A stretch of 64,000 bases of DNA, taken from positions 22,279-86,278 of the forward strand of contig MFKO01000002.1 of assembly GCA_001779595.1 (NCBI GenBank), in the 5' to 3' direction. A program made the position numbers and the translations under genes. The notes beneath the pieces are model-generated. The model was not told the DNA's origin, searched no databases, and worked only from the letters and a program-made list of their open reading frames with translations. Below, one piece after another: positions 13,509 to 30,713 of this stretch. Within the stretch, counting starts at the first letter, position 1. Each line of letters begins with the position of its first letter. This DNA is from Candidatus Kaiserbacteria bacterium RIFCSPHIGHO2_01_FULL_46_22. GTDB lineage: Bacteria > Patescibacteriota > Minisyncoccia > Phycocordibacterales > UBA918.

Positions 13509-14387
13509 TTGAAACTGTCAGATATGTTGAAGCCGGAAAATCGAACGGTTAAAGGATGGTCAGACTACGCCCTTTTGGACAGTGGTGAAGGAATGAAGTT
13601 GGAACGTTTTGGTGATCTCACTTTGGCGCGTCCAGACACCCAGGCGATTTGGCAAAAGCATTCTCCTAAAGAATGGCGTGAGGCCGACGCAACTTTCAGC
13701 TTGAAAGAAGGTAAGGGGCGATGGCAGAAAAAAGCATCCGCGCCGGAACGTGCTTTGATGAGCTTTGGCGATGTGCAGTTCAGTATTCGTCTTGGTAGCT
13801 TTAAACACATTGGTGTATTTCCTGAGCAAGCTGATAACTGGCGGTTCATCAAAGAACAAGTAGAAAAGCAGAAGGAGCCAAAGGTATTAAATCTTTTTGG
13901 TTATACCGGTGTAGCTACTTTGGTGGCAGCAAAAGCTGGCGCACACGTTACTCACGTTGATGCGTCTAAGCAATCTCTAGACTTGGCGAGTGCTAATGCT
14001 GGTTTATCGGAGTTGCCTAAAGATCGCGTGCGGTGGATTCCAGACGACGCTTTAGCATTTGTAAAGCGTGAGGCTCGACGCGGTACTCGTTACGACGGCA
14101 TTGTACTCGATCCACCAGCCTTCGGCCGTGGCGCCAAGGGACAGGTGTGGCATATTGAGCAGGATCTACCAAAGCTTTTAGTTGTTCTCAAAGACCTGCT
14201 ATCTGAAAAGCCCAGCTCGTTTTTGGTATTAAATGGGTATGCGGCCGGTTATAGCGCAACAACATTTTCTCAGCTAGTACTGGAACAGTTTCCGACTCTG
14301 AAGGGCACGTACGGCGAGCTACTACTGGCTGAAGAAAACGGAAATCGTCAGTTGCCGAGTGGTATCTATGTGCGTGGTCAGATATGA
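13509..14387 (+). CDS. Class I SAM-dependent rRNA methyltransferase (RlmI/RlmK-like)
   Basis: LNLFGYTGVATLVAAKAGAHVTHVD (SAM-binding) and IVLDPPAFGRG motifs. Confidence 0.6.
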   Translation: MKLSDMLKPENRTVKGWSDYALLDSGEGMKLERFGDLTLARPDTQAIWQKHSPKEWREADATFSLKEGKGRWQKKASAPERALMSFGDVQFSIRLGSFKHIGVFPEQADNWRFIKEQVEKQKEPKVLNLFGYTGVATLVAAKAGAHVTHVDASKQSLDLASANAGLSELPKDRVRWIPDDALAFVKREARRGTRYDGIVLDPPAFGRGAKGQVWHIEQDLPKLLVVLKDLLSEKPSSFLVLNGYAAGYSATTFSQLVLEQFPTLKGTYGELLLAEENGNRQLPSGIYVRGQI

Positions 14388-14710
14388 AGCGGAAAGTATT
14401 AGGAAAAACTTTTTCTGAAAGAGTAGTCGAACTAGCCTGTAGCGTGCCTTCAGGCCGAGTGACAACCTATGGTGACTTGGCGAGAGCGGCTGGCGGTACA
14501 CCAATGACAGCACAGGGGATTTCGGGAATTTTAGGTAAGGCAGAAAAAAACGGTGTGAAAGGTATTCCTTGGCATCGGATTGTTTATAGTGACGGTCGAG
14601 TTTGGCTTGATGAAGAACATCGAGATGCTCGATTGAAGCTTTATAAAAAAGAAAAAATTAAACTTGATGAAAAGAATCGAGTGATTGATTTTGATTTAAA
14701 AAGGTTTTAA
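14384..14710 (+). CDS. Alkyltransferase-like (ATL) protein: MGMT DNA-binding domain with Trp replacing the active-site Cys
   Basis: ...VTTYGDLARAAGG...GIPWHRIVYSDGRV; PWHR in place of PCHR. Confidence 0.6.
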   Translation: MKRKVLGKTFSERVVELACSVPSGRVTTYGDLARAAGGTPMTAQGISGILGKAEKNGVKGIPWHRIVYSDGRVWLDEEHRDARLKLYKKEKIKLDEKNRVIDFDLKRF

Positions 14711-14790
14711 CCTCGGTTTAATCGTGATAGGGTGTTTATAGAAGGACAGACTCGCTGTACTTCGCAAAAACCTGTACAAGGAGAATAGAA

Positions 14791-15144
14791 ATGTTACCTG
14801 ATTGGACAGGAAAGGCTGTGGCAGGTGCCGCAGTGGGCGCCGTAGCTGCTATGATCGTCGGCTTCGCGTGGGGTGGTTGGATGACCAGTGGGTCGGCTGC
14901 GACGATGGCGAAAGCCGAATCGCAGAAGGCAGTAGTTGCTGCCCTTACTCCGATCTGCGTCAAGCAGGCGGAAGTTGATCCGGAACGCACGGTGAAGCTC
15001 GCGGCGTTGGGCGCGTTATCTTCGTACCAGCGGAGCGACGAGCTCGTGAAGACCGGCTGGGCAACAATGCCTGGTCACGACAAGCCGGCCGACAGGGCCG
15101 TCATCTCAGCTTGTCTCAACGAACTGGCCAAGAGTCTGAAGTAG
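14791..15144 (+). CDS. Orphan 117-aa protein in GC-rich island; N-terminal Gly/Ala-rich TM helix
   Basis: AAGGAG, 7-nt spacer, ATG; GC-rich; GKAVAGAAVGAVAAMIVGFAWGGW helix; no family recognised. Confidence 0.4.
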   Translation: MLPDWTGKAVAGAAVGAVAAMIVGFAWGGWMTSGSAATMAKAESQKAVVAALTPICVKQAEVDPERTVKLAALGALSSYQRSDELVKTGWATMPGHDKPADRAVISACLNELAKSLK

Positions 15145-15163
15145 TTCAGACGAGAACACAATA

Positions 15164-15203
15164 GTGCGCCGTTCGGTTATACCGAACGGCGCATATTTTA
15201 TTT
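15164..15203. terminator. Rho-independent terminator (bidirectional position)
   Basis: gcgccgttcgg-ttata-ccgaacggcgc perfect stem followed by a T-run. Confidence 0.8.
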
Positions 15204-15935
15204 GTATGGGTCCTTTTGAGCGTAAATGGAGACGGTGCGACGCTTGCGGGCTTTGCCGTGAGCGCGATGCTTGTGTGAACGGTATATCTTTTTGACGATG
15301 AATTTTTCGGACAGAAATTCAAGCAACTCATTTTCGCCATAGGCGTGTTCGGGCACACCGATCACTGGGTGGATGTAGCTTCCAGGTTCATTGGCTGGAA
15401 ATTCTTTGAGTAATCGTATCGTGTGGAGGTCGTCGTCACGCAAGAAAGTTTTCATAAACAACCAACCACCTGGTCGTAAAACTCGATGTATTTCATTTCG
15501 TAGCACTTCGCGTTCGGACGCAACTAAAAAGTGCGATGTCATCATATCGAGAACAAGATCTTGCGAAGCGTCGGGAAGATCAATTGTTCCTGCAATACTG
15601 CGGGCCTCGTAAGTGATTGGCAGGCCTGAAGACAAGCGTTTAGCCTCAGCCACAGCCGCGGTTGAAAGGTCATAACCTACACCAGTGACGCCAAACTCAC
15701 GTGCCAAAAAAATGAGGTTACGGCCGTTGCCGCTGCCTAGGTCTAGAGCCTTGGCGTGCTTATTTAATGCCAGCTCATTTTTTTGGCGCGAGAGCCAACG
15801 TGTAAATTTGGCAAAGTCCTCGCTCTCGTCTTCTGACAACGCCAAATGCTCCCCGCCAGAGGCGTACTCGCTGTCCCAGAAAGTAACACCGTGTTGCTTT
15901 CGCTTCTGTTTTCGTATGAAAGGTCTCTTGGCCAT
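15198..15935 (-). CDS. Class I SAM-dependent methyltransferase
   Basis: ALDLGSGNGRNLIFLAREFGVTGVGYDLS motif I; basic C-terminal tail. Confidence 0.6.
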   Translation of the reverse strand: MAKRPFIRKQKRKQHGVTFWDSEYASGGEHLALSEDESEDFAKFTRWLSRQKNELALNKHAKALDLGSGNGRNLIFLAREFGVTGVGYDLSTAAVAEAKRLSSGLPITYEARSIAGTIDLPDASQDLVLDMMTSHFLVASEREVLRNEIHRVLRPGGWLFMKTFLRDDDLHTIRLLKEFPANEPGSYIHPVIGVPEHAYGENELLEFLSEKFIVKKIYRSHKHRAHGKARKRRTVSIYAQKDPYK

Positions 15936-16739: not shown

Positions 16740-17369
16740 ATGCTAAAGAAACATTTTTGGAAGATCGCCGCTCTTATTGCTGTTTTGGCTTTAGGCGGAG
16801 CAATTTATTACTCAAAACAAGCCTCAGAGAAAGCCAATGAAGGGGTAACTATTTCTTCTCACATCAAAGGCAATCCGGAAGCAAGAGTTGAACTTGTTGA
16901 GTATAGTGACTTTCAGTGTCCAGCCTGCGCTCAGTTCTATCCTTATGTAAAAGACTTGCTGGACGAACACGGATCATCAATACGTTTTGAATACCGACAC
17001 TTCCCGCTGGTGACAGTTCACCCCGTAGCTATCCCGGCAGCACGTGCCGCCGAAGCCGCCAGTCAGCAAGGCAAGTTTTGGGAAATGCATGACAAGTTGT
17101 TTGAAAACCAAAGTGCTTGGAGTAAGGCAAGTAATGCAAACGCACTTTTTGTTCAGTATGCCGAAGAACTTGATCTTGACGTCTCGTTATTCAAGAGTCA
17201 TATGAACGCTTCACTAATCGACGAAGCTATCAGCAAGAGCTTTGAGGACGCACGCACTCGCGGTTTCTCCGGTACTCCTACCTTCCTCCTAAACGGAGAA
17301 CTGATGCAGTTCACAACCTTCGACGAATTCCGAACAGCTATCGAGGAAGCAATTGCAGAGGCTTCATAG
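16740..17369 (+). CDS. DsbA-like thiol:disulfide oxidoreductase, membrane-anchored
   Basis: N-terminal TM; CPAC CxxC motif in a thioredoxin-like context. Confidence 0.6.
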   Translation: MLKKHFWKIAALIAVLALGGAIYYSKQASEKANEGVTISSHIKGNPEARVELVEYSDFQCPACAQFYPYVKDLLDEHGSSIRFEYRHFPLVTVHPVAIPAARAAEAASQQGKFWEMHDKLFENQSAWSKASNANALFVQYAEELDLDVSLFKSHMNASLIDEAISKSFEDARTRGFSGTPTFLLNGELMQFTTFDEFRTAIEEAIAEAS

Positions 17370-26212: not shown

Positions 26213-26593
26213 ATGGGGATACTTATTAGGAGGTCAGATGGACTTCGGATTCGTGTGACCGGCACCGGCGTGGATGGTGACCCGATCGGTGAGGTTATCG
26301 ACGATCAGGACAGCATCGTCACGGTCCGTCGCCTCAACTTGGCCGAAAGGGACGCCTACTACCGCGCCCAGAAAAGCGGGAAGATAGAAGTTGCGGTTAT
26401 CAAACACCACAACGGCGTCATCAAGACTCAGCGCTACTGGAGCCCGAGCAGCGGGAAACGTTCCGTTGCTCCGCAGAGATCTTCTCTGCGGAGCAACAAA
26501 TCCTCGACCACTTACAGGGTCGTCGAGATCGAAAGCCAGTTTTCTGTGCGGATCGGCACCAAGCACTTGGACTTTCCGAAGGGTCTCTATTGA
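26213..26593 (+). CDS. Orphan 126-aa protein in GC-rich island
   Basis: AGGAG, 7-nt spacer, ATG; GC-rich; contains a 15-bp-arm inverted repeat; no family recognised. Confidence 0.4.
   Translation: MGILIRRSDGLRIRVTGTGVDGDPIGEVIDDQDSIVTVRRLNLAERDAYYRAQKSGKIEVAVIKHHNGVIKTQRYWSPSSGKRSVAPQRSSLRSNKSSTTYRVVEIESQFSVRIGTKHLDFPKGLY
26465..26497 (+). repeat. Perfect inverted repeat inside the orphan ORF (15-bp arms, 3-nt spacer)
   Basis: gttgctccgcagaga-tct-tctctgcggagcaac. Confidence 0.8.
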
Positions 26594-28644: not shown

Positions 28645-30672
28645 TTAGATACCAATCAGTACTGGAATCACCATCGGAGTCTTGTTGGTCTTTTGCATTA
28701 GGAAGCCAGAAACAGTGTTGGAAAGTTCATCCTTCACATAATCTAGATCAAGAGGATGCATTTTCTCAGTATGCTTCTCAACAGTTTTTTTGATGAGAAT
28801 GCGGGCTTCTGATAGTAGCTGTTGGTTCTCACGCAAGTAAACGAAGCCACGAGAAATAATGTCAGGCGACTTACGCAGCTTTCCGTTCTTGGTATTGACG
28901 GTCGCGATGATAACGAACATACCGTCTTCAGCGAGTGTCTGGCGGTCACGCAGCACCACTTCCTGCTTGGTGCCCACTGTGAAGCCATCTACCATCACAA
29001 GTTCGGTAGGGGCCTTTGCTTTTTGTACGGTCATCTCACCATTCTTGAAGTCGATTAGGAAGCCGTTGTCTGGTACCACAATGTTTTCGCGAGGGAAACC
29101 GTTTTCGATTGCCGTATACATATGGCTCTTCAAGTGGTAATGGTGGCCGTGTACTGGGATCAAGAATTTCGGACGAATCGCCTGACGTACCCAATTTAGT
29201 TCACCAGCATTACCGTGGCCAGAGGAGTGCACTGCCGCGCTGCGGTAGTTGATAACCTTCACATTCTTGCGGTAGATATTGTCCTTTAATTTCTGAACAG
29301 CAATCTCGTTACCGGGAATCACCGATGAAGACAACACAATAGTGTCGCGTTCAGTTAGTGTGATCTGCTTATGCTTATCGGTTGCGATTCGCATCAGAGC
29401 AGCAAATTCCTCACCCTGCGCACCAGTGGAAAGGATAACGATGCGATCTGATGGGTAGTCGCCCATATCACCAGCATTGATAAATATTTTATCGTCAACT
29501 TCCAATAGTTTTGCTGTCCGAGCGATGTCTATGTTGGTTTTGATACTGCGACCTTCCAGTACGACTTTTTTGCCGTATTTCTCGCAGGATTTTATGATCG
29601 AAGTTAGTCGCTCAAATTGTGAAGCAAACGTACCAATGATCATACGGCCGGTACTGTTTTTGATGATGGCATCAAGATTTGAAAGAACCAAACCTTCCGA
29701 TGCAGAAAATCCCTCACGGTCAGCATTGGTCGAGTCACAAATCAAAACTAGGTTGTTGTTTTTGCCCATCTTCTCCCAGCTCTCACGTTCATCCAAATCC
29801 ACTTCACCATCTTCATGAGTAAGGCGGATGTCACCAGTGATTACAATATCGCCCTGGTTGGTCTCCACAGATACTCCCATCGCGTCAGGAATTGAGTGAG
29901 TGACAGGGAAGGTTTTGATTCTCATCTTGCCAACAGTGAAAGAATCACCCTCTTTGACAACGTGCATATCAACAGGGTCTAGATGAGGAAATTCTTCTTG
30001 ACGCTTCTTGATCATTAGTGAGGTCAAGTACTGGGTGTAAATTGGCGGGTTACCAATACGTTCCATTACAAATGGAATACCACCGATGTGATCGAGGTGT
30101 CCGTGAGTGACTACTAGAGCTCGGATCTTATGCTTTCGTTCCTCGACATACTGAGTATTAGGCAAGATGTAGTTGATACCTGGAGCGTTAGATTCTTCGG
30201 ATACGAATTGAAAACCAATGTCGAAAATAACCATGTCGTCCTTTGTTTCAACCACTGTCATGTTACGACCGATTTCTTCAACGCCGCTCATCGGAATCAC
30301 ACGTACAGTCTCGTCATCAGTAATTTCTGGCAGGCGAGGAGATTTCTCGTCAGTGACAGAAATACGGTGTTGAAGAGCCGGCGCTTTGTTGGAGCGGCGT
30401 TTGTTCGCAAAGCGAGAAGGACGGCGAGAGCCACCGCGTCGCTCGCCGGCACTGTCATTGGTGCGGCCAGCAGGGCGGGGTGCGGCGCTTTTTGTTTCTG
30501 TGCTGACACCAGTAGCACTACCTGTGCCTGTACCAGCTACATTGTTGCGGGAGGGCGCACCACGATAGTTACTGCGTGAGCCAAAACGGGTTCGGCTTCC
30601 GCCGCTACCACCAAATGGACGTCGGCGACTACCGCCTGTGGCCTTTGGTCCATTATTTTGATTATTATCCAT
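28645..30672 (-). CDS. rnj: Ribonuclease J (beta-CASP metallo-beta-lactamase) with ~110-aa Arg/Gly/Ser-rich N-terminal extension
   Basis: VTHGHLDHIGGIP HxHxDH motif and beta-CASP region; N-terminus MDNNQNNGPKATGGSRRRPFGGSGGSRTRFGSRSNYRGAPSRN... Confidence 0.8.
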   Translation of the reverse strand: MDNNQNNGPKATGGSRRRPFGGSGGSRTRFGSRSNYRGAPSRNNVAGTGTGSATGVSTETKSAAPRPAGRTNDSAGERRGGSRRPSRFANKRRSNKAPALQHRISVTDEKSPRLPEITDDETVRVIPMSGVEEIGRNMTVVETKDDMVIFDIGFQFVSEESNAPGINYILPNTQYVEERKHKIRALVVTHGHLDHIGGIPFVMERIGNPPIYTQYLTSLMIKKRQEEFPHLDPVDMHVVKEGDSFTVGKMRIKTFPVTHSIPDAMGVSVETNQGDIVITGDIRLTHEDGEVDLDERESWEKMGKNNNLVLICDSTNADREGFSASEGLVLSNLDAIIKNSTGRMIIGTFASQFERLTSIIKSCEKYGKKVVLEGRSIKTNIDIARTAKLLEVDDKIFINAGDMGDYPSDRIVILSTGAQGEEFAALMRIATDKHKQITLTERDTIVLSSSVIPGNEIAVQKLKDNIYRKNVKVINYRSAAVHSSGHGNAGELNWVRQAIRPKFLIPVHGHHYHLKSHMYTAIENGFPRENIVVPDNGFLIDFKNGEMTVQKAKAPTELVMVDGFTVGTKQEVVLRDRQTLAEDGMFVIIATVNTKNGKLRKSPDIISRGFVYLRENQQLLSEARILIKKTVEKHTEKMHPLDLDYVKDELSNTVSGFLMQKTNKTPMVIPVLIGI

Positions 30673-30713
30673 ATTAGTTAGTTAAATTTTTAATTAAGTT
30701 GATTTTCAATAAG

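What the first reader, a model, noticed from the sequence alone, without database searches (positions are those of the whole stretch)
14775..15203. Second GC-rich single-gene cassette: orphan 117-aa protein with Gly/Ala-zipper TM helix
Seen: AAGGAG-7 nt-ATG at 14791, a GC-rich ORF, then an exact 11-bp-stem terminator (gcgccgttcgg/ccgaacggcgc) followed by a T-run that abuts the convergent methyltransferase gene. The protein begins with a GxxxG/AxxxA-rich helix (GKAVAGAAVGAVAAMIVGFAWGGW) followed by a ~90-aa soluble tail. It lies between an ATL DNA-repair-like gene and a methyltransferase gene, and its composition is unlike either.
Basis: partly seen in the sequence, partly recalled or inferred. 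Interest (0 to 1): 0.55.

Follow-up and report, generated by a model that had tools for sequence, protein, structure and literature searches.

The report
Foreign membrane-protein gene in Kaiserbacteria
A small GC-rich gene wedged between two housekeeping genes of a low-GC Kaiserbacteria (CPR) genome is a real, old horizontal acquisition, and it is not an orphan: it encodes a membrane-anchored, outward-facing helical protein from a large, uncharacterised family that is common in high-GC Alphaproteobacteria and their plasmids.

Summary
AAGGAG lies 7 nt before the ATG at 14791. The 117-aa ORF has 60.5% GC (GC3 0.67) in a 45.5% GC window, and it ends with a strong hairpin terminator abutting the convergent methyltransferase gene.

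"Orphan" is wrong. The protein belongs to a family with about 2,400 50%-identity clusters. The family has no Pfam or NCBIfam model and no solved structural relative. It is abundant in Alphaproteobacteria (at least 578 species genomes and 88 plasmids) and also occurs in Rokubacteria and NC10.

Foreign origin is well supported:
- Close Kaiserbacteria relatives have an empty slot, with the ATL and MTase stop codons about 12 nt apart.
- Other relatives carry the cassette, a cupin gene, or both in that slot.
- The four Kaiserbacteria copies form one clade (87% bootstrap) among copies from higher-GC bacteria.
- The Giovannonibacteria copy is a separate acquisition.
- In non-CPR hosts the gene's GC matches the host; in CPR hosts it is 10–17 points higher.

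The gene is old and functional: dN/dS is about 0.11 and dS about 1.3 against the nearest relative.

The protein is predicted to be N-in/C-out. It has a glycine-zipper-like anchor, a four-helix ectodomain with two invariant cysteines, and an invariant GWATMPG loop.

Its function is unknown. Donor-lineage neighbours (hflKC, groESL, a Crp/Fnr regulator) hint weakly at envelope stress or proteostasis. Interest is modest.

The parts
14384..14710 (+). Left flank, not part of the insert: a 108-aa ATL/MGMT-like DNA-binding protein gene. Its stop codon marks the left edge of the variable slot.
   Evidence: PF01035 at E=4.6e-14. Orthologues at 71-92% identity lie next to the slot in L001, L101, L103, L104, L122 and L123.
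14711..14790 (+). Leader of the insert. Its GC is host-like (42.5%). It contains the Shine-Dalgarno AAGGAG at 14778-14783, 7 nt before the ATG, and presumably the promoter.
   Evidence: It is absent from the empty-site relatives L101 and L104 and conserved in L001 (alignment A2). GC. No sigma-70 consensus promoter was found, and no Rfam family matched.
14791..15144 (+). 117-aa ORF with 60.5% GC and GC3 of 0.67. It is a member of a large uncharacterised family of bitopic membrane proteins.
   Evidence: dN/dS is 0.11-0.13 against the L001, L122 and L123 copies.
14815..14880 (+). Signal-anchor TM helix, residues 9-30. It has a small-xxx-small face (G12, G16, A20, G24, G28) and the family motif GF-x-WGGW at the outer interface.
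   Evidence: Hydropathy maximum of 2.02 at residues 9-27. The N-flank net charge is +1.7 against -0.5 after the TM segment over 191 family members. G24 and F25 are invariant, and W27, G28, G29 and W30 are at least 90% conserved.
14956..14958 (+). Invariant Cys56 in the PICV motif on ectodomain helix 1.
   Evidence: Invariant in alignments A1 and A3. 183 of 191 family members have exactly two ectodomain cysteines.
15055..15075 (+). The GWATMPG loop, residues 89-95. It is the most conserved element of the ectodomain and lies between helices 3 and 4.
   Evidence: W90, A91, T92, P94 and G95 are invariant, and G89 and M93 are at least 90% conserved. It is a loop in both AF2 models.
15112..15114 (+). 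Invariant Cys108 on the last helix, the inferred disulfide partner of Cys56.
15164..15204 (+). Intrinsic terminator: a hairpin at 15164-15194 followed by ATTTTATTTG. Its tail overlaps the methyltransferase stop codon at 15198-15200. It marks the right edge of the insert, at about 15195.
   Evidence: The hairpin is kept in L001 and, through compensatory changes, in L122 and L123. It is absent from the empty sites.
15198..15935 (-). Right flank, not part of the insert: a convergent 245-aa class-I SAM methyltransferase gene.
   Evidence: PF08241 and PF13649 at E~1e-14. Orthologues at 48-90% identity were used to recover 22 related loci.

Best explanation
The ~485-bp segment at 14711-15195 is a horizontally acquired accessory gene. 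It was inserted between the stop codons of two convergent housekeeping genes (ATL-like and methyltransferase) in an ancestor of a Kaiserbacteria sub-lineage. The donor was a bacterium with higher GC; the nearest named relatives are Alphaproteobacteria.

Shown:
- The insert is self-contained, with a leader carrying a strong SD, one ORF and a strong intrinsic terminator.
- It has been kept under purifying selection for a long time.
- The slot it occupies is variable among relatives: empty, cupin gene, cassette, or cupin plus cassette.

Predicted from sequence: the product is a type-II (N-in/C-out) bitopic membrane protein. It has a short cytoplasmic N-terminus and one TM helix with a glycine-zipper-like face ending in the conserved GF-x-WGGW interface motif. 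Its ~85-residue extracytoplasmic domain has four helices, displays the invariant GWATMPG loop, and is probably pinned by a Cys56-Cys108 disulfide. A DsbA-like gene lies 1.6 kb away.

Inferred with low confidence: the unusually conserved TM and juxtamembrane segment, together with the loop, acts as a binding module. It would dock onto itself or onto a conserved membrane partner at the outer face of the cytoplasmic membrane, in envelope stress or membrane-protein quality control. The reason is that in donor-type lineages the gene sits in plasmid-borne islands next to hflK-hflC, groES-groEL and a Crp/Fnr regulator. No conserved acidic or histidine residues are present, which argues against catalysis or metal binding.
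For: Composition:
- The ORF is 60.5% GC against 45.5% for the window (z = 4.3) and GC3 is 0.67 against 0.44.
- Only half of the excess is explained by amino-acid content.

Empty site:
- In L101/L102 (flanking proteins 83-90% identical) and L104 (74-78%), the ATL and MTase stops are about 12 nt apart and there is no cassette.
- L103 has a Cupin_2 gene there instead.
- L123 has the cupin gene plus the cassette, and L122 and L001/L100 have the cassette alone.

Phylogeny and distribution:
- The four Kaiserbacteria copies are monophyletic in 174 of 200 bootstraps. A Kaiserbacteria plus Giovannonibacteria grouping was recovered in 0 of 200.
- The nearest sequences come from non-CPR contigs and Alphaproteobacteria at 47-56% identity.
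- In non-CPR hosts the gene's GC (59-68%) is about the host's (55-73%). In CPR hosts it is 54-62% against 40-45%.
- The family is on 88 alphaproteobacterial plasmids, 55 of them predicted conjugative.

Age and function:
- dN/dS is 0.11-0.13. The cassette's dS of 1.3 is similar to that of its flanks (1.2-2.0), so there has been no recent exchange.

Protein architecture:
- One hydrophobic segment, a positive-inside charge bias, and exactly two ectodomain Cys in 183 of 191 members.
- The AF2 models give a TM helix plus four helices, with ectodomain pLDDT of about 78-85.
- Invariant residues are listed.

Donor context:
- Annotated plasmid loci show the family member immediately upstream of hflK-hflC and near groES/EL, a Crp/Fnr regulator and nhaA.
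- In S. meliloti pSymA it lies 74 bp downstream of groEL.
- Within +/-5 kb in 80 species genomes: Crp/Fnr 46, GroEL 23, HflK plus HflC 14.
Against: - The donor clade is not resolved. The sister (P0011) is recovered in only 87 of 200 bootstraps, the alignment has only 115 columns, and only NJ was used.
- Gain and loss cannot be told apart for individual lineages. No cassette remnant is seen in L103. A single old gain needs at least three clean losses.
- Cassette GC3 is still 0.67-0.68 in both the window and L001 despite near-saturated synonymous divergence, and polarised changes are balanced. Simple neutral amelioration does not predict this.
- The functional inference rests on gene neighbourhood in related Alphaproteobacteria and their plasmids, so the cases are not phylogenetically independent. 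It is absent in the Rokubacteria, NC10-like and other contexts and in the CPR loci themselves.
- The 104-aa partner gene that is translationally coupled to the family member in 56 of 80 alphaproteobacterial loci was not co-transferred.
- No fold or profile match supports any function.
- The disulfide and the topology are predictions.
Confidence: 0.7

Rival explanations
1. The gene is a native, vertically inherited Kaiserbacteria gene. Its GC-richness comes from an Ala/Gly-rich protein and gene-specific codon selection, and relatives that lack it have simply lost it.
For: - The gene sits in the same slot in four lineages. Its tree ((W, L001), (L122, L123)) is congruent with flank divergence.
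- About half of the GC excess is due to amino-acid composition.
- GC3 shows no net decay on the window and L001 branches, as expected if the gene's own equilibrium GC is high.
Against: - Observed GC3 is 0.67, against 0.46 expected with host codon usage.
- Empty slots with about 12 nt between the stop codons occur in relatives as close as L001.
- The family is overwhelmingly found in higher-GC, non-CPR bacteria and on their plasmids. In CPR it was seen only in this Kaiserbacteria group and, separately placed, in Giovannonibacteria.
- The L122 and L123 copies have drifted to GC3 of 0.52-0.53, which argues against a fixed gene-specific optimum.
Confidence: 0.1
2. The cassette is cargo of a dedicated mobile element, such as an integron gene cassette with an attC-like palindrome, a MITE or IS remnant, or a phage moron. 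The element delivered it site-specifically.
For: - The layout is a single ORF followed by a perfect palindrome at the 3' end, sitting in a slot that holds different genes in different relatives.
- The hairpin arms contain GTTCGGT / ACCGAAC, each matching 6 of 7 positions of the attC core consensus (GTTRRRY / RYYYAAC; consensus recalled from my own knowledge, sequence).
- Four IMG/VR contigs encode relatives.
Against: - There are no target-site duplications or terminal inverted repeats at the insert boundaries.
- The order of the two core-like heptamers is the reverse of attC. The stem is perfect with a 3-nt loop and a T-run, which is the anatomy of an intrinsic terminator.
- Unlike a typical integron cassette, the insert carries its own 80-nt leader with an SD.
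- There are no hits in 50,697 phage genomes or in PHROGs.
- No transposase or integrase gene is adjacent.
Confidence: 0.05
3. The architecture is the same but the role is different. The protein is a surface-exposed immunity, exclusion or host-interface factor, for example an orphan immunity protein against a periplasm-acting toxin or a mimic of a host envelope protein. It would have been acquired by the episymbiotic CPR cell from its bacterial host or neighbours.
For: - It is a small, exported, disulfide-stabilised helical domain on a membrane anchor, with one invariant loop and otherwise fast evolution (dN about 2.6 times that of its flanks).
- It is usually a stand-alone gene in variable contexts outside the Alphaproteobacteria.
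- CPR lineages captured it independently.
- The Giovannonibacteria copy lies among DpnI, MazE-like and SocA/Panacea genes.
- It is carried on plasmids.
Against: - PADLOC gave no hit.
- There is no structural similarity to any solved immunity protein.
- No toxin or effector gene is adjacent in any locus examined.
- The strongly conserved TM segment and loop across about 2,400 clusters are atypical of arms-race proteins.
- The recurrent neighbours are chaperone and protease-modulator genes.
Confidence: 0.1
4. The GC-rich segment is an assembly or binning artefact, that is, a chimeric join of foreign DNA into a CPR contig.
For: The window comes from a metagenome-assembled genome (named), and the composition jump is abrupt.
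Against: - The identical protein is recorded on 5 contigs, one of them 397 kb long.
- The 79%-identical copy is in the same slot on 6 contigs from independent ENA, JGI and Logan assemblies.
- Both junctions are colinear with host genes. The cassette has diverged in step with its flanks (dS 1.3 against 1.2-2.0).
Confidence: 0.02

Closest known systems
Uncharacterised 'hypothetical protein' family of Alphaproteobacteria, Rokubacteria and NC10. Examples: WP_072506908.1 (Phaeobacter porticola pP97_c), WP_057821648.1 (Roseovarius indicus pRIdsm_03), WP_101754711.1 (Paracoccus pPZ02), and the 129-aa ORF downstream of groEL on S. meliloti pSymA.
   Same: The length is about 115-140 aa. Members share the N-terminal TM helix ending in GF-x-WGGW-x-TGG, PIC(V), GWATMPG and a C-terminal Cys. 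Identity to the window protein is 35-56%, with E-values down to 1e-27.
   Different: - In Alphaproteobacteria the gene is usually translationally coupled to an upstream 104-aa partner and embedded in a Crp/Fnr, hflKC and groESL island. In the window it is alone, between housekeeping genes.
- In those hosts the gene's GC matches the host's.
- No member has a described function.
Horizontally acquired single-gene islands in CPR/Patescibacteria genomes (a general phenomenon; stated from my own knowledge).
   Same: It shows atypical composition, patchy distribution, an empty site in close relatives, and insertion into an intergenic spot between convergent genes.
   Different: The acquisition is old, with dS > 1 against the nearest relative, yet GC3 is still 0.67. 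The same family was captured at least twice by different CPR lineages.
Small accessory membrane proteins encoded next to SPFH/FtsH-modulator genes, such as NfeD/YbbJ with QmcA or YqiJ with YqiK (from my own knowledge of these operons).
   Same: In Rhodobacterales and Roseibium plasmids the family member lies immediately upstream of hflK-hflC, in the same orientation. It is a small bitopic protein facing the same compartment as the HflKC cage.
   Different: There is no sequence or fold relationship. NfeD has a beta-rich OB-fold soluble domain, whereas this domain is all-alpha, and there is no Pfam hit. The adjacency is seen in only 14 of 80 genome loci and not at all in CPR.
Glycine-zipper membrane helices (GxxxGxxxG).
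   Same: G12, G16, A20, G24 and G28 line one helix face. G24 and G28 are invariant or nearly so.
   Different: G12 and G16 are replaced in the long-form homologues, including the NC10 and Rokubacteria-type copies. No Pfam Gly-zipper model is hit. Oligomerisation has not been tested.

Membership tests
Orphan (ORFan) gene | No detectable homologues outside the genome or its closest relatives | tested here: not met
   There are 287 homologues at E<=0.01, 2,426 50%-identity cluster representatives at E<=1e-3 and 1,349 at E<=1e-10, and at least 578 species-representative genomes.
GF-x-WGGW / GWATMPG family (unnamed; no Pfam or NCBIfam model) | An N-terminal TM helix ending in G-F-x-W-G-G-W | tested here: met
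   The window protein has residues 24-30 GFAWGGW. G24 and F25 are invariant, and W27, G28, G29 and W30 are at least 90% conserved.
GF-x-WGGW / GWATMPG family (unnamed; no Pfam or NCBIfam model) | Two conserved ectodomain cysteines and the GWATMPG loop | tested here: met
   C56, C108, W90, A91, T92, P94 and G95 are invariant. 183 of 191 members have exactly two ectodomain Cys.
Horizontally transferred gene | Composition atypical for the host at synonymous sites | tested here: met
   GC3 is 0.67 against 0.44 +/- 0.07 for the host, and 0.46 is expected for this protein with host codon usage.
Horizontally transferred gene | An empty site in close relatives | tested here: met
   In L101/L102 and L104 the ATL and MTase stops are about 12 nt apart.
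Horizontally transferred gene | Recipient copies nested within a donor clade in the gene tree | tested here: inconclusive
   The Kaiserbacteria copies are monophyletic (87%) and sit inside a clade of alphaproteobacterial and unassigned higher-GC sequences in the NJ tree. The sister relationship is weak (P0011, 87 of 200), and no ML tree was made.
Intrinsic (Rho-independent) terminator | A GC-rich stem-loop directly followed by a U-run downstream of the stop codon | tested here: met
   The stem has 14 pairs (9 of them G-C) with a 3-nt loop, followed by AUUUUAUUU. It folds at -26.4 kcal/mol with z = -6.6. It is conserved with compensatory changes in L122 and L123. Termination itself has not been shown.
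Integron gene cassette | An attC site with R''(RYYYAAC)...R'(GTTRRRY) in that order and extrahelical bases, a promoterless ORF, and an integrase with attI nearby | tested here: not met
   The heptamers occur in the reverse order, each matches only 6 of 7 positions, and the stem is perfect. The cassette has its own 80-nt leader. No integrase-like ORF lies among the neighbours. The attC consensus is recalled from my own knowledge.
Phage-derived small membrane protein (holin, superinfection exclusion) | Homologues in phage genomes or phage protein families | tested here: not met
   PHROGs gave no hit. There is no tblastn match in 50,697 phage records. Only 4 of 2.9 million IMG/VR contigs carry a relative.
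Known anti-phage defence proteins | A match to a PADLOC model | tested here: not met
   No hit at E<=10.
NfeD-like partners of SPFH proteins | The NfeD (PF01957) C-terminal OB-fold domain | tested here: not met
   There are no Pfam hits for the window protein or for 69 family members. The predicted domain is all-alpha.
Type-II (N-in/C-out) signal-anchor membrane protein | A single uncleaved TM segment, a positive-inside charge bias, and an exported C-terminal domain | tested here: inconclusive
   There is one hydrophobic segment. The charge is +1.7 in the N-flank against -0.5 after the TM segment. Long, charged N-extensions occur in homologues, and the Cys pair is conserved. The -3 position of the only AxA-like site is K or Q in homologues, which argues against cleavage. 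No experimental topology is available.

The most novel reading that the evidence does not exclude
The family would be an undescribed, widespread envelope factor: a membrane-anchored periplasmic binding module that works with membrane-protein quality control (FtsH-HflKC or chaperone stress islands). It travels on alphaproteobacterial plasmids and has been captured at least twice independently by CPR bacteria. In those hosts some force other than neutral drift keeps its GC-rich codons after saturating divergence, such as selection on codons or mRNA, or repeated re-import from host bacteria.
Probability: 0.12. Interest if true: 0.55.

Novelty: new member of a known kind. Interest (0 to 1): 0.3.

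Why it matters
The locus is a clean, datable example of gene flow from larger-genome, higher-GC bacteria into the reduced genomes of CPR bacteria. It offers an occupied site, an empty site and alternative occupants of the same slot.

It also flags a large protein family, about 2,400 clusters at 50% identity, found in model organisms such as S. meliloti and on Roseobacter-group plasmids. That family has no Pfam or NCBIfam model, no structure and no known function, so it is a reasonable candidate for a new DUF and for a simple knockout or interaction study.

Beyond that, the finding is ordinary. It is one accessory membrane-protein gene, already deposited as a hypothetical protein.

Tried and rejected
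- Family libraries: Pfam, NCBIfam, PHROGs and PADLOC scans of the protein gave nothing. Ten longer family members showed no fused domains. Scanning 69 members for consistent weak hits gave none. Alphaproteobacterial members also gave nothing.
- RNA: Rfam on the cassette gave only chance-level hits.
- Promoter: the sigma-70 scan of the leader found none.
- Mobile-element signatures: no boundary repeats were found. The attC reading of the hairpin was rejected on heptamer order and stem geometry.
- A correction of my own: I first took the ~104-aa gene upstream of the family member in Alphaproteobacteria for a tandem paralogue, an artefact of naive ORF clustering. The family profile does not hit it, so I withdrew the claim. 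It is a distinct partner with no Pfam, NCBIfam or PDB match.
- Cassette remnant: a search of L103's spacer found none.
- Literature: searches on the S. meliloti locus found no functional data.
- Technical: the first bootstrap run timed out and was redone with a numpy NJ.
Full report
1. THE OBSERVATION

AAGGAG lies at 14778-14783, followed by a 7-nt spacer and ATG at 14791. The ORF is 117 aa and ends at 15144. A hairpin follows whose arms are 13 nt and perfectly complementary (15165-15177 / 15181-15193), or 14 pairs at 15164-15194. It folds at -26.4 kcal/mol, z = -6.6 against shuffles. After it comes ATTTTATTT, which runs into the stop codon of the convergent 245-aa methyltransferase ORF (15198-15935).

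The flanking genes are as stated. The left one matches PF01035, an ATL/MGMT DNA-binding domain, and the right one matches class-I methyltransferase domains.

The composition contrast is statistically real. The ORF is 60.5% GC against a window mean of 45.5% (z = 4.3), and only 0.23% of equal-length windows are as GC-rich. GC3 is 0.669 against 0.441 +/- 0.066 for 69 window ORFs. I split the excess into two parts. The same protein written with the host's codon usage would be 53.7% GC with GC3 of 0.46. So about half of the excess comes from the Ala-rich protein (20.5% Ala against 8.0%) and half from GC-rich synonymous codons. The 80-nt leader has host-like GC (42.5%).

2. NOT AN ORPHAN

The identical protein is deposited as a hypothetical protein of Candidatus Kaiserbacteria bacterium RIFCSPHIGHO2_01_FULL_46_2x. 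A word-indexed search found 287 homologues. An exhaustive profile search over 1.84 billion cluster representatives found 2,426 at E<=1e-3 and 1,349 at E<=1e-10. A scan of one genome per species found at least 578 genomes with a relative. The best 80 are all Alphaproteobacteria, including the Roseobacter group, Kiloniellales, Rhodospirillales, Inquilinus, Microvirga and Roseibium. Named hits also include NC10 and Rokubacteria.

The family is on 88 alphaproteobacterial plasmids, 55 of them predicted conjugative and 48 of them Sinorhizobium records, S. meliloti 1021 pSymA among them. It is on no phage record, and only 4 of 2.9 million IMG/VR contigs carry a relative. Every annotated copy is called 'hypothetical protein'. 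There is no Pfam, NCBIfam, PHROGs or PADLOC model.

3. THE INSERTION AND ITS HISTORY

The neighbouring methyltransferase was used to fish out related loci, and the other flanking proteins were mapped onto them. This recovered all states of the slot between the ATL and MTase stop codons:
- Empty, with about 12 nt between the stops, in L101/L102 (flanking proteins 83-90% identical to the window's) and in L104 (74-78%) (alignment A2).
- An unrelated low-GC Cupin_2 gene in L103.
- The cassette in L001/L100 (protein 79% identical) and in L122 (66%).
- The cupin gene plus the cassette in L123 (62%).

Alignment A2 delimits the insert in the window to about 14711-15195. It comprises the leader, the ORF and the terminator. 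The terminator hairpin is retained in L001 and, through compensatory substitutions, in L122 and L123. No direct or inverted repeats mark the boundaries.

In all four occupied loci the gene is GC-elevated: 55-62% against 40-45% for the rest of the contig. The same is true of the Giovannonibacteria copy, at 53.9% against 44.0%. In non-CPR hosts the gene's GC (59-68%) tracks the host's (55-73%).

In an NJ tree with 200 bootstraps the four Kaiserbacteria copies are monophyletic (87%), window plus L001 pair at 99%, and L122 plus L123 at 92%. A Kaiserbacteria plus Giovannonibacteria grouping was never recovered. The surrounding clade holds alphaproteobacterial and unassigned higher-GC sequences, and the sister, P0011, lies on a 54.6% GC non-CPR-like contig. 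The sister relationship is weak, so the donor is identified only as a higher-GC bacterium, most similar to Alphaproteobacteria.

The gene is old and functional. dN/dS is 0.11-0.13 in all resolvable comparisons. The cassette's dS between the window and L001 is 1.3, like its flanks (1.2-2.0). Its protein evolves about 2.6 times faster than those of the flanks.

The simplest history is one acquisition in an ancestor of this Kaiserbacteria group, with later losses or recombinational spread through the conserved flanks. I could not tell these two apart, because no remnant is left in L103.

An assembly artefact is excluded. The cassette recurs on independent ENA, JGI and Logan contigs, and it has diverged in step with its flanks.

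4. AN UNEXPLAINED DETAIL

Synonymous divergence between the window and L001 is near saturation, with third-position identity of 51%. Even so, both copies keep GC3 of 0.67-0.68. Polarised third-position changes on these two branches are balanced: 9 GC->AT against 10 AT->GC. The L122 and L123 branches lean AT-ward, 24 against 13.

The counts are small and the outgroups are saturated, so this is only suggestive. A simple neutral amelioration model would need an implausibly GC-rich ancestor at the window/L001 split (my estimate). Either the timing and route of spread among Kaiserbacteria is more complicated than assumed, or something maintains GC-rich codons in this gene.

5. THE PROTEIN

The family alignment shows:
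- a variable, often Lys/Arg-rich N-terminus of 0-60 residues;
- a TM helix that is unusually well conserved at its outer end (G24 and F25 invariant; W27, G28, G29, W30, T32 and G34 at least 90%);
- the PIC(V) motif with invariant C56;
- the invariant loop G-W-A-T-M-P-G at residues 89-95;
- invariant C108.

There is one hydrophobic segment, at residues 9-27. Across 191 members the N-flank net charge is +1.7 against -0.5 after the TM segment, and 183 of 191 have exactly two ectodomain cysteines. The only AxA-like site has K or Q at position -3 in homologues, so the helix is a signal anchor rather than a cleaved signal peptide. The predicted topology is N-in/C-out.

The AF2 models give a TM helix followed by four helices, with ectodomain pLDDT of about 78-85 and pTM of 0.63 for the domain alone. 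GWATMPG lies in the loop before the last helix. A C56-C108 disulfide is inferred from conservation and compartment. A DsbA-like gene lies at 16740-17369 (ORF), and its L001 orthologue hits PF13462 and PF01323.

Only G24 and G28 are family-wide.

6. FUNCTIONAL CONTEXT

In CPR and in most non-alphaproteobacterial loci the gene is a stand-alone unit in unrelated neighbourhoods.

In Alphaproteobacteria it is part of a recurrent island that is often plasmid-borne. The island runs nhaA, groES-groEL, a Crp/Fnr regulator, two small divergent unknowns, a 104-aa unknown whose stop overlaps the family member's start, the family member, hflK-hflC, a Cys-rich repeat protein, and transglutaminase-like genes. 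This was read from Paracoccus pPZ02, Phaeobacter pP97_c, Roseovarius pRIdsm_03 and a Roseibium plasmid. In S. meliloti pSymA the gene lies 74 bp downstream of groES-groEL, near csp and cbpA/cbpM.

Within +/-5 kb in the 80 species genomes, the counts are: 104-aa partner 56, Crp/Fnr 46, transglutaminase-like 38, GroEL 23, and HflK plus HflC 14. These loci are phylogenetically related, so the counts are not independent.

This is the only functional lead. It points, weakly, to envelope stress or membrane-protein quality control.

My best mechanistic guess is a membrane-anchored extracytoplasmic binding module. Its conserved TM and juxtamembrane segment and its GWATMPG loop would dock onto itself or onto a conserved membrane partner. 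I put about 25% on the proteostasis link specifically. A surface immunity or host-interface role is a live alternative at about 10%.

7. COMPARISON, NOVELTY AND VERDICT

The gene is a bona fide member of an unnamed, uncharacterised family, and all of the family's defining motifs are present. The following readings were tested and not met:
- an orphan gene;
- a phage gene;
- a known defence gene;
- an integron cassette (the heptamers are in the wrong order, the stem is perfect and is followed by a T-run, and the cassette has its own leader);
- an NfeD-type SPFH partner.

As a phenomenon it is a well-documented instance of an ordinary kind: horizontal acquisition of an accessory membrane-protein gene by a CPR genome, into a variable slot between convergent genes. 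What adds some value is the very clean series of occupied, empty and alternative sites, the apparent persistence of GC-rich codons, and the size of the unannotated family. Interest is 0.3.

Noticed in passing
The 148-aa ORF has no Pfam hit. The relative L001 has a counterpart region (L001 1-1029, 69% nt identity) with two GC-rich genes of 59% and 61% GC. So this island too predates the window/L001 split.
   Followed up: partly
window 26213-26593 (+): A 126-aa ORF with the highest GC3 in the window (0.69, against 0.44 on average) and no Pfam hit. It may be another foreign single gene.
   Followed up: partly
window 30237-30684 (within ORF 28645-30672, minus strand): This GC-rich patch is only the Gly/Arg/Ser-rich, low-complexity N-terminal tail of a 675-aa ORF. 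It is a composition effect and not an insert. Domain identity was not tested.
   Followed up: partly
L103 4892-5260 (-) and L123 336-704 (+): A 122-aa Cupin_2 gene (PF07883, E=7.7e-14), with host-like GC, occupies the same ATL/MTase slot in two relatives, once alone and once together with the cassette. The slot is therefore a recurrent landing or retention site for accessory genes.
   Followed up: yes
window 16740-17369 (+): A 209-aa ORF with an N-terminal hydrophobic segment. Its L001 orthologue hits Thioredoxin_4 and DSBA. This is a DsbA-like oxidoreductase 1.6 kb downstream, which could form the predicted disulfide in the cassette protein. The proximity is probably coincidental, since it is also present next to the empty sites.
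   Followed up: partly
L124 5687-5995, L125 5684-5998, L126 5609-5923, L129 6621-6920: A conserved ~100-104-aa protein with no Pfam, NCBIfam or PDB match is translationally coupled to the family member in Alphaproteobacteria, with stop and start overlapping. It is present in 56 of 80 species loci and was not co-transferred to CPR.
   Followed up: partly
L124-L126 and L129 (alphaproteobacterial plasmids): A recurrent plasmid-borne island of mostly unknown genes with nhaA, groES/EL, a Crp/Fnr regulator, hflK-hflC, a Cys-rich repeat protein and transglutaminase-like genes. It looks like a mobile stress or proteostasis island. I found no paper describing it.
   Followed up: partly
L127 7878-8267 (S. 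meliloti 1021 pSymA 65729-66118, minus strand): The S. meliloti family member is 129 aa and lies 74 bp downstream of a groES-groEL operon. A transcriptome paper reports a small new gene at 65258-65494 that is co-transcribed with upstream SMa0121 (PMC2396165). That suggests this stretch is expressed. I could not confirm which ORF is SMa0121.
   Followed up: partly
L005-L008 (Giovannonibacteria-type contigs), gene at L005 6001-6369: The independently acquired Giovannonibacteria copy (53.9% GC against 44.0%) lies among DpnI, MazE-like and HTH/SocA-Panacea genes, which is a variable, defence-like neighbourhood.
   Followed up: no
L131-L134 (IMG/VR contigs): Four viral-collection contigs encode relatives at 36-51% identity. 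I did not examine whether these are true phage genes or host DNA at prophage ends.
   Followed up: no
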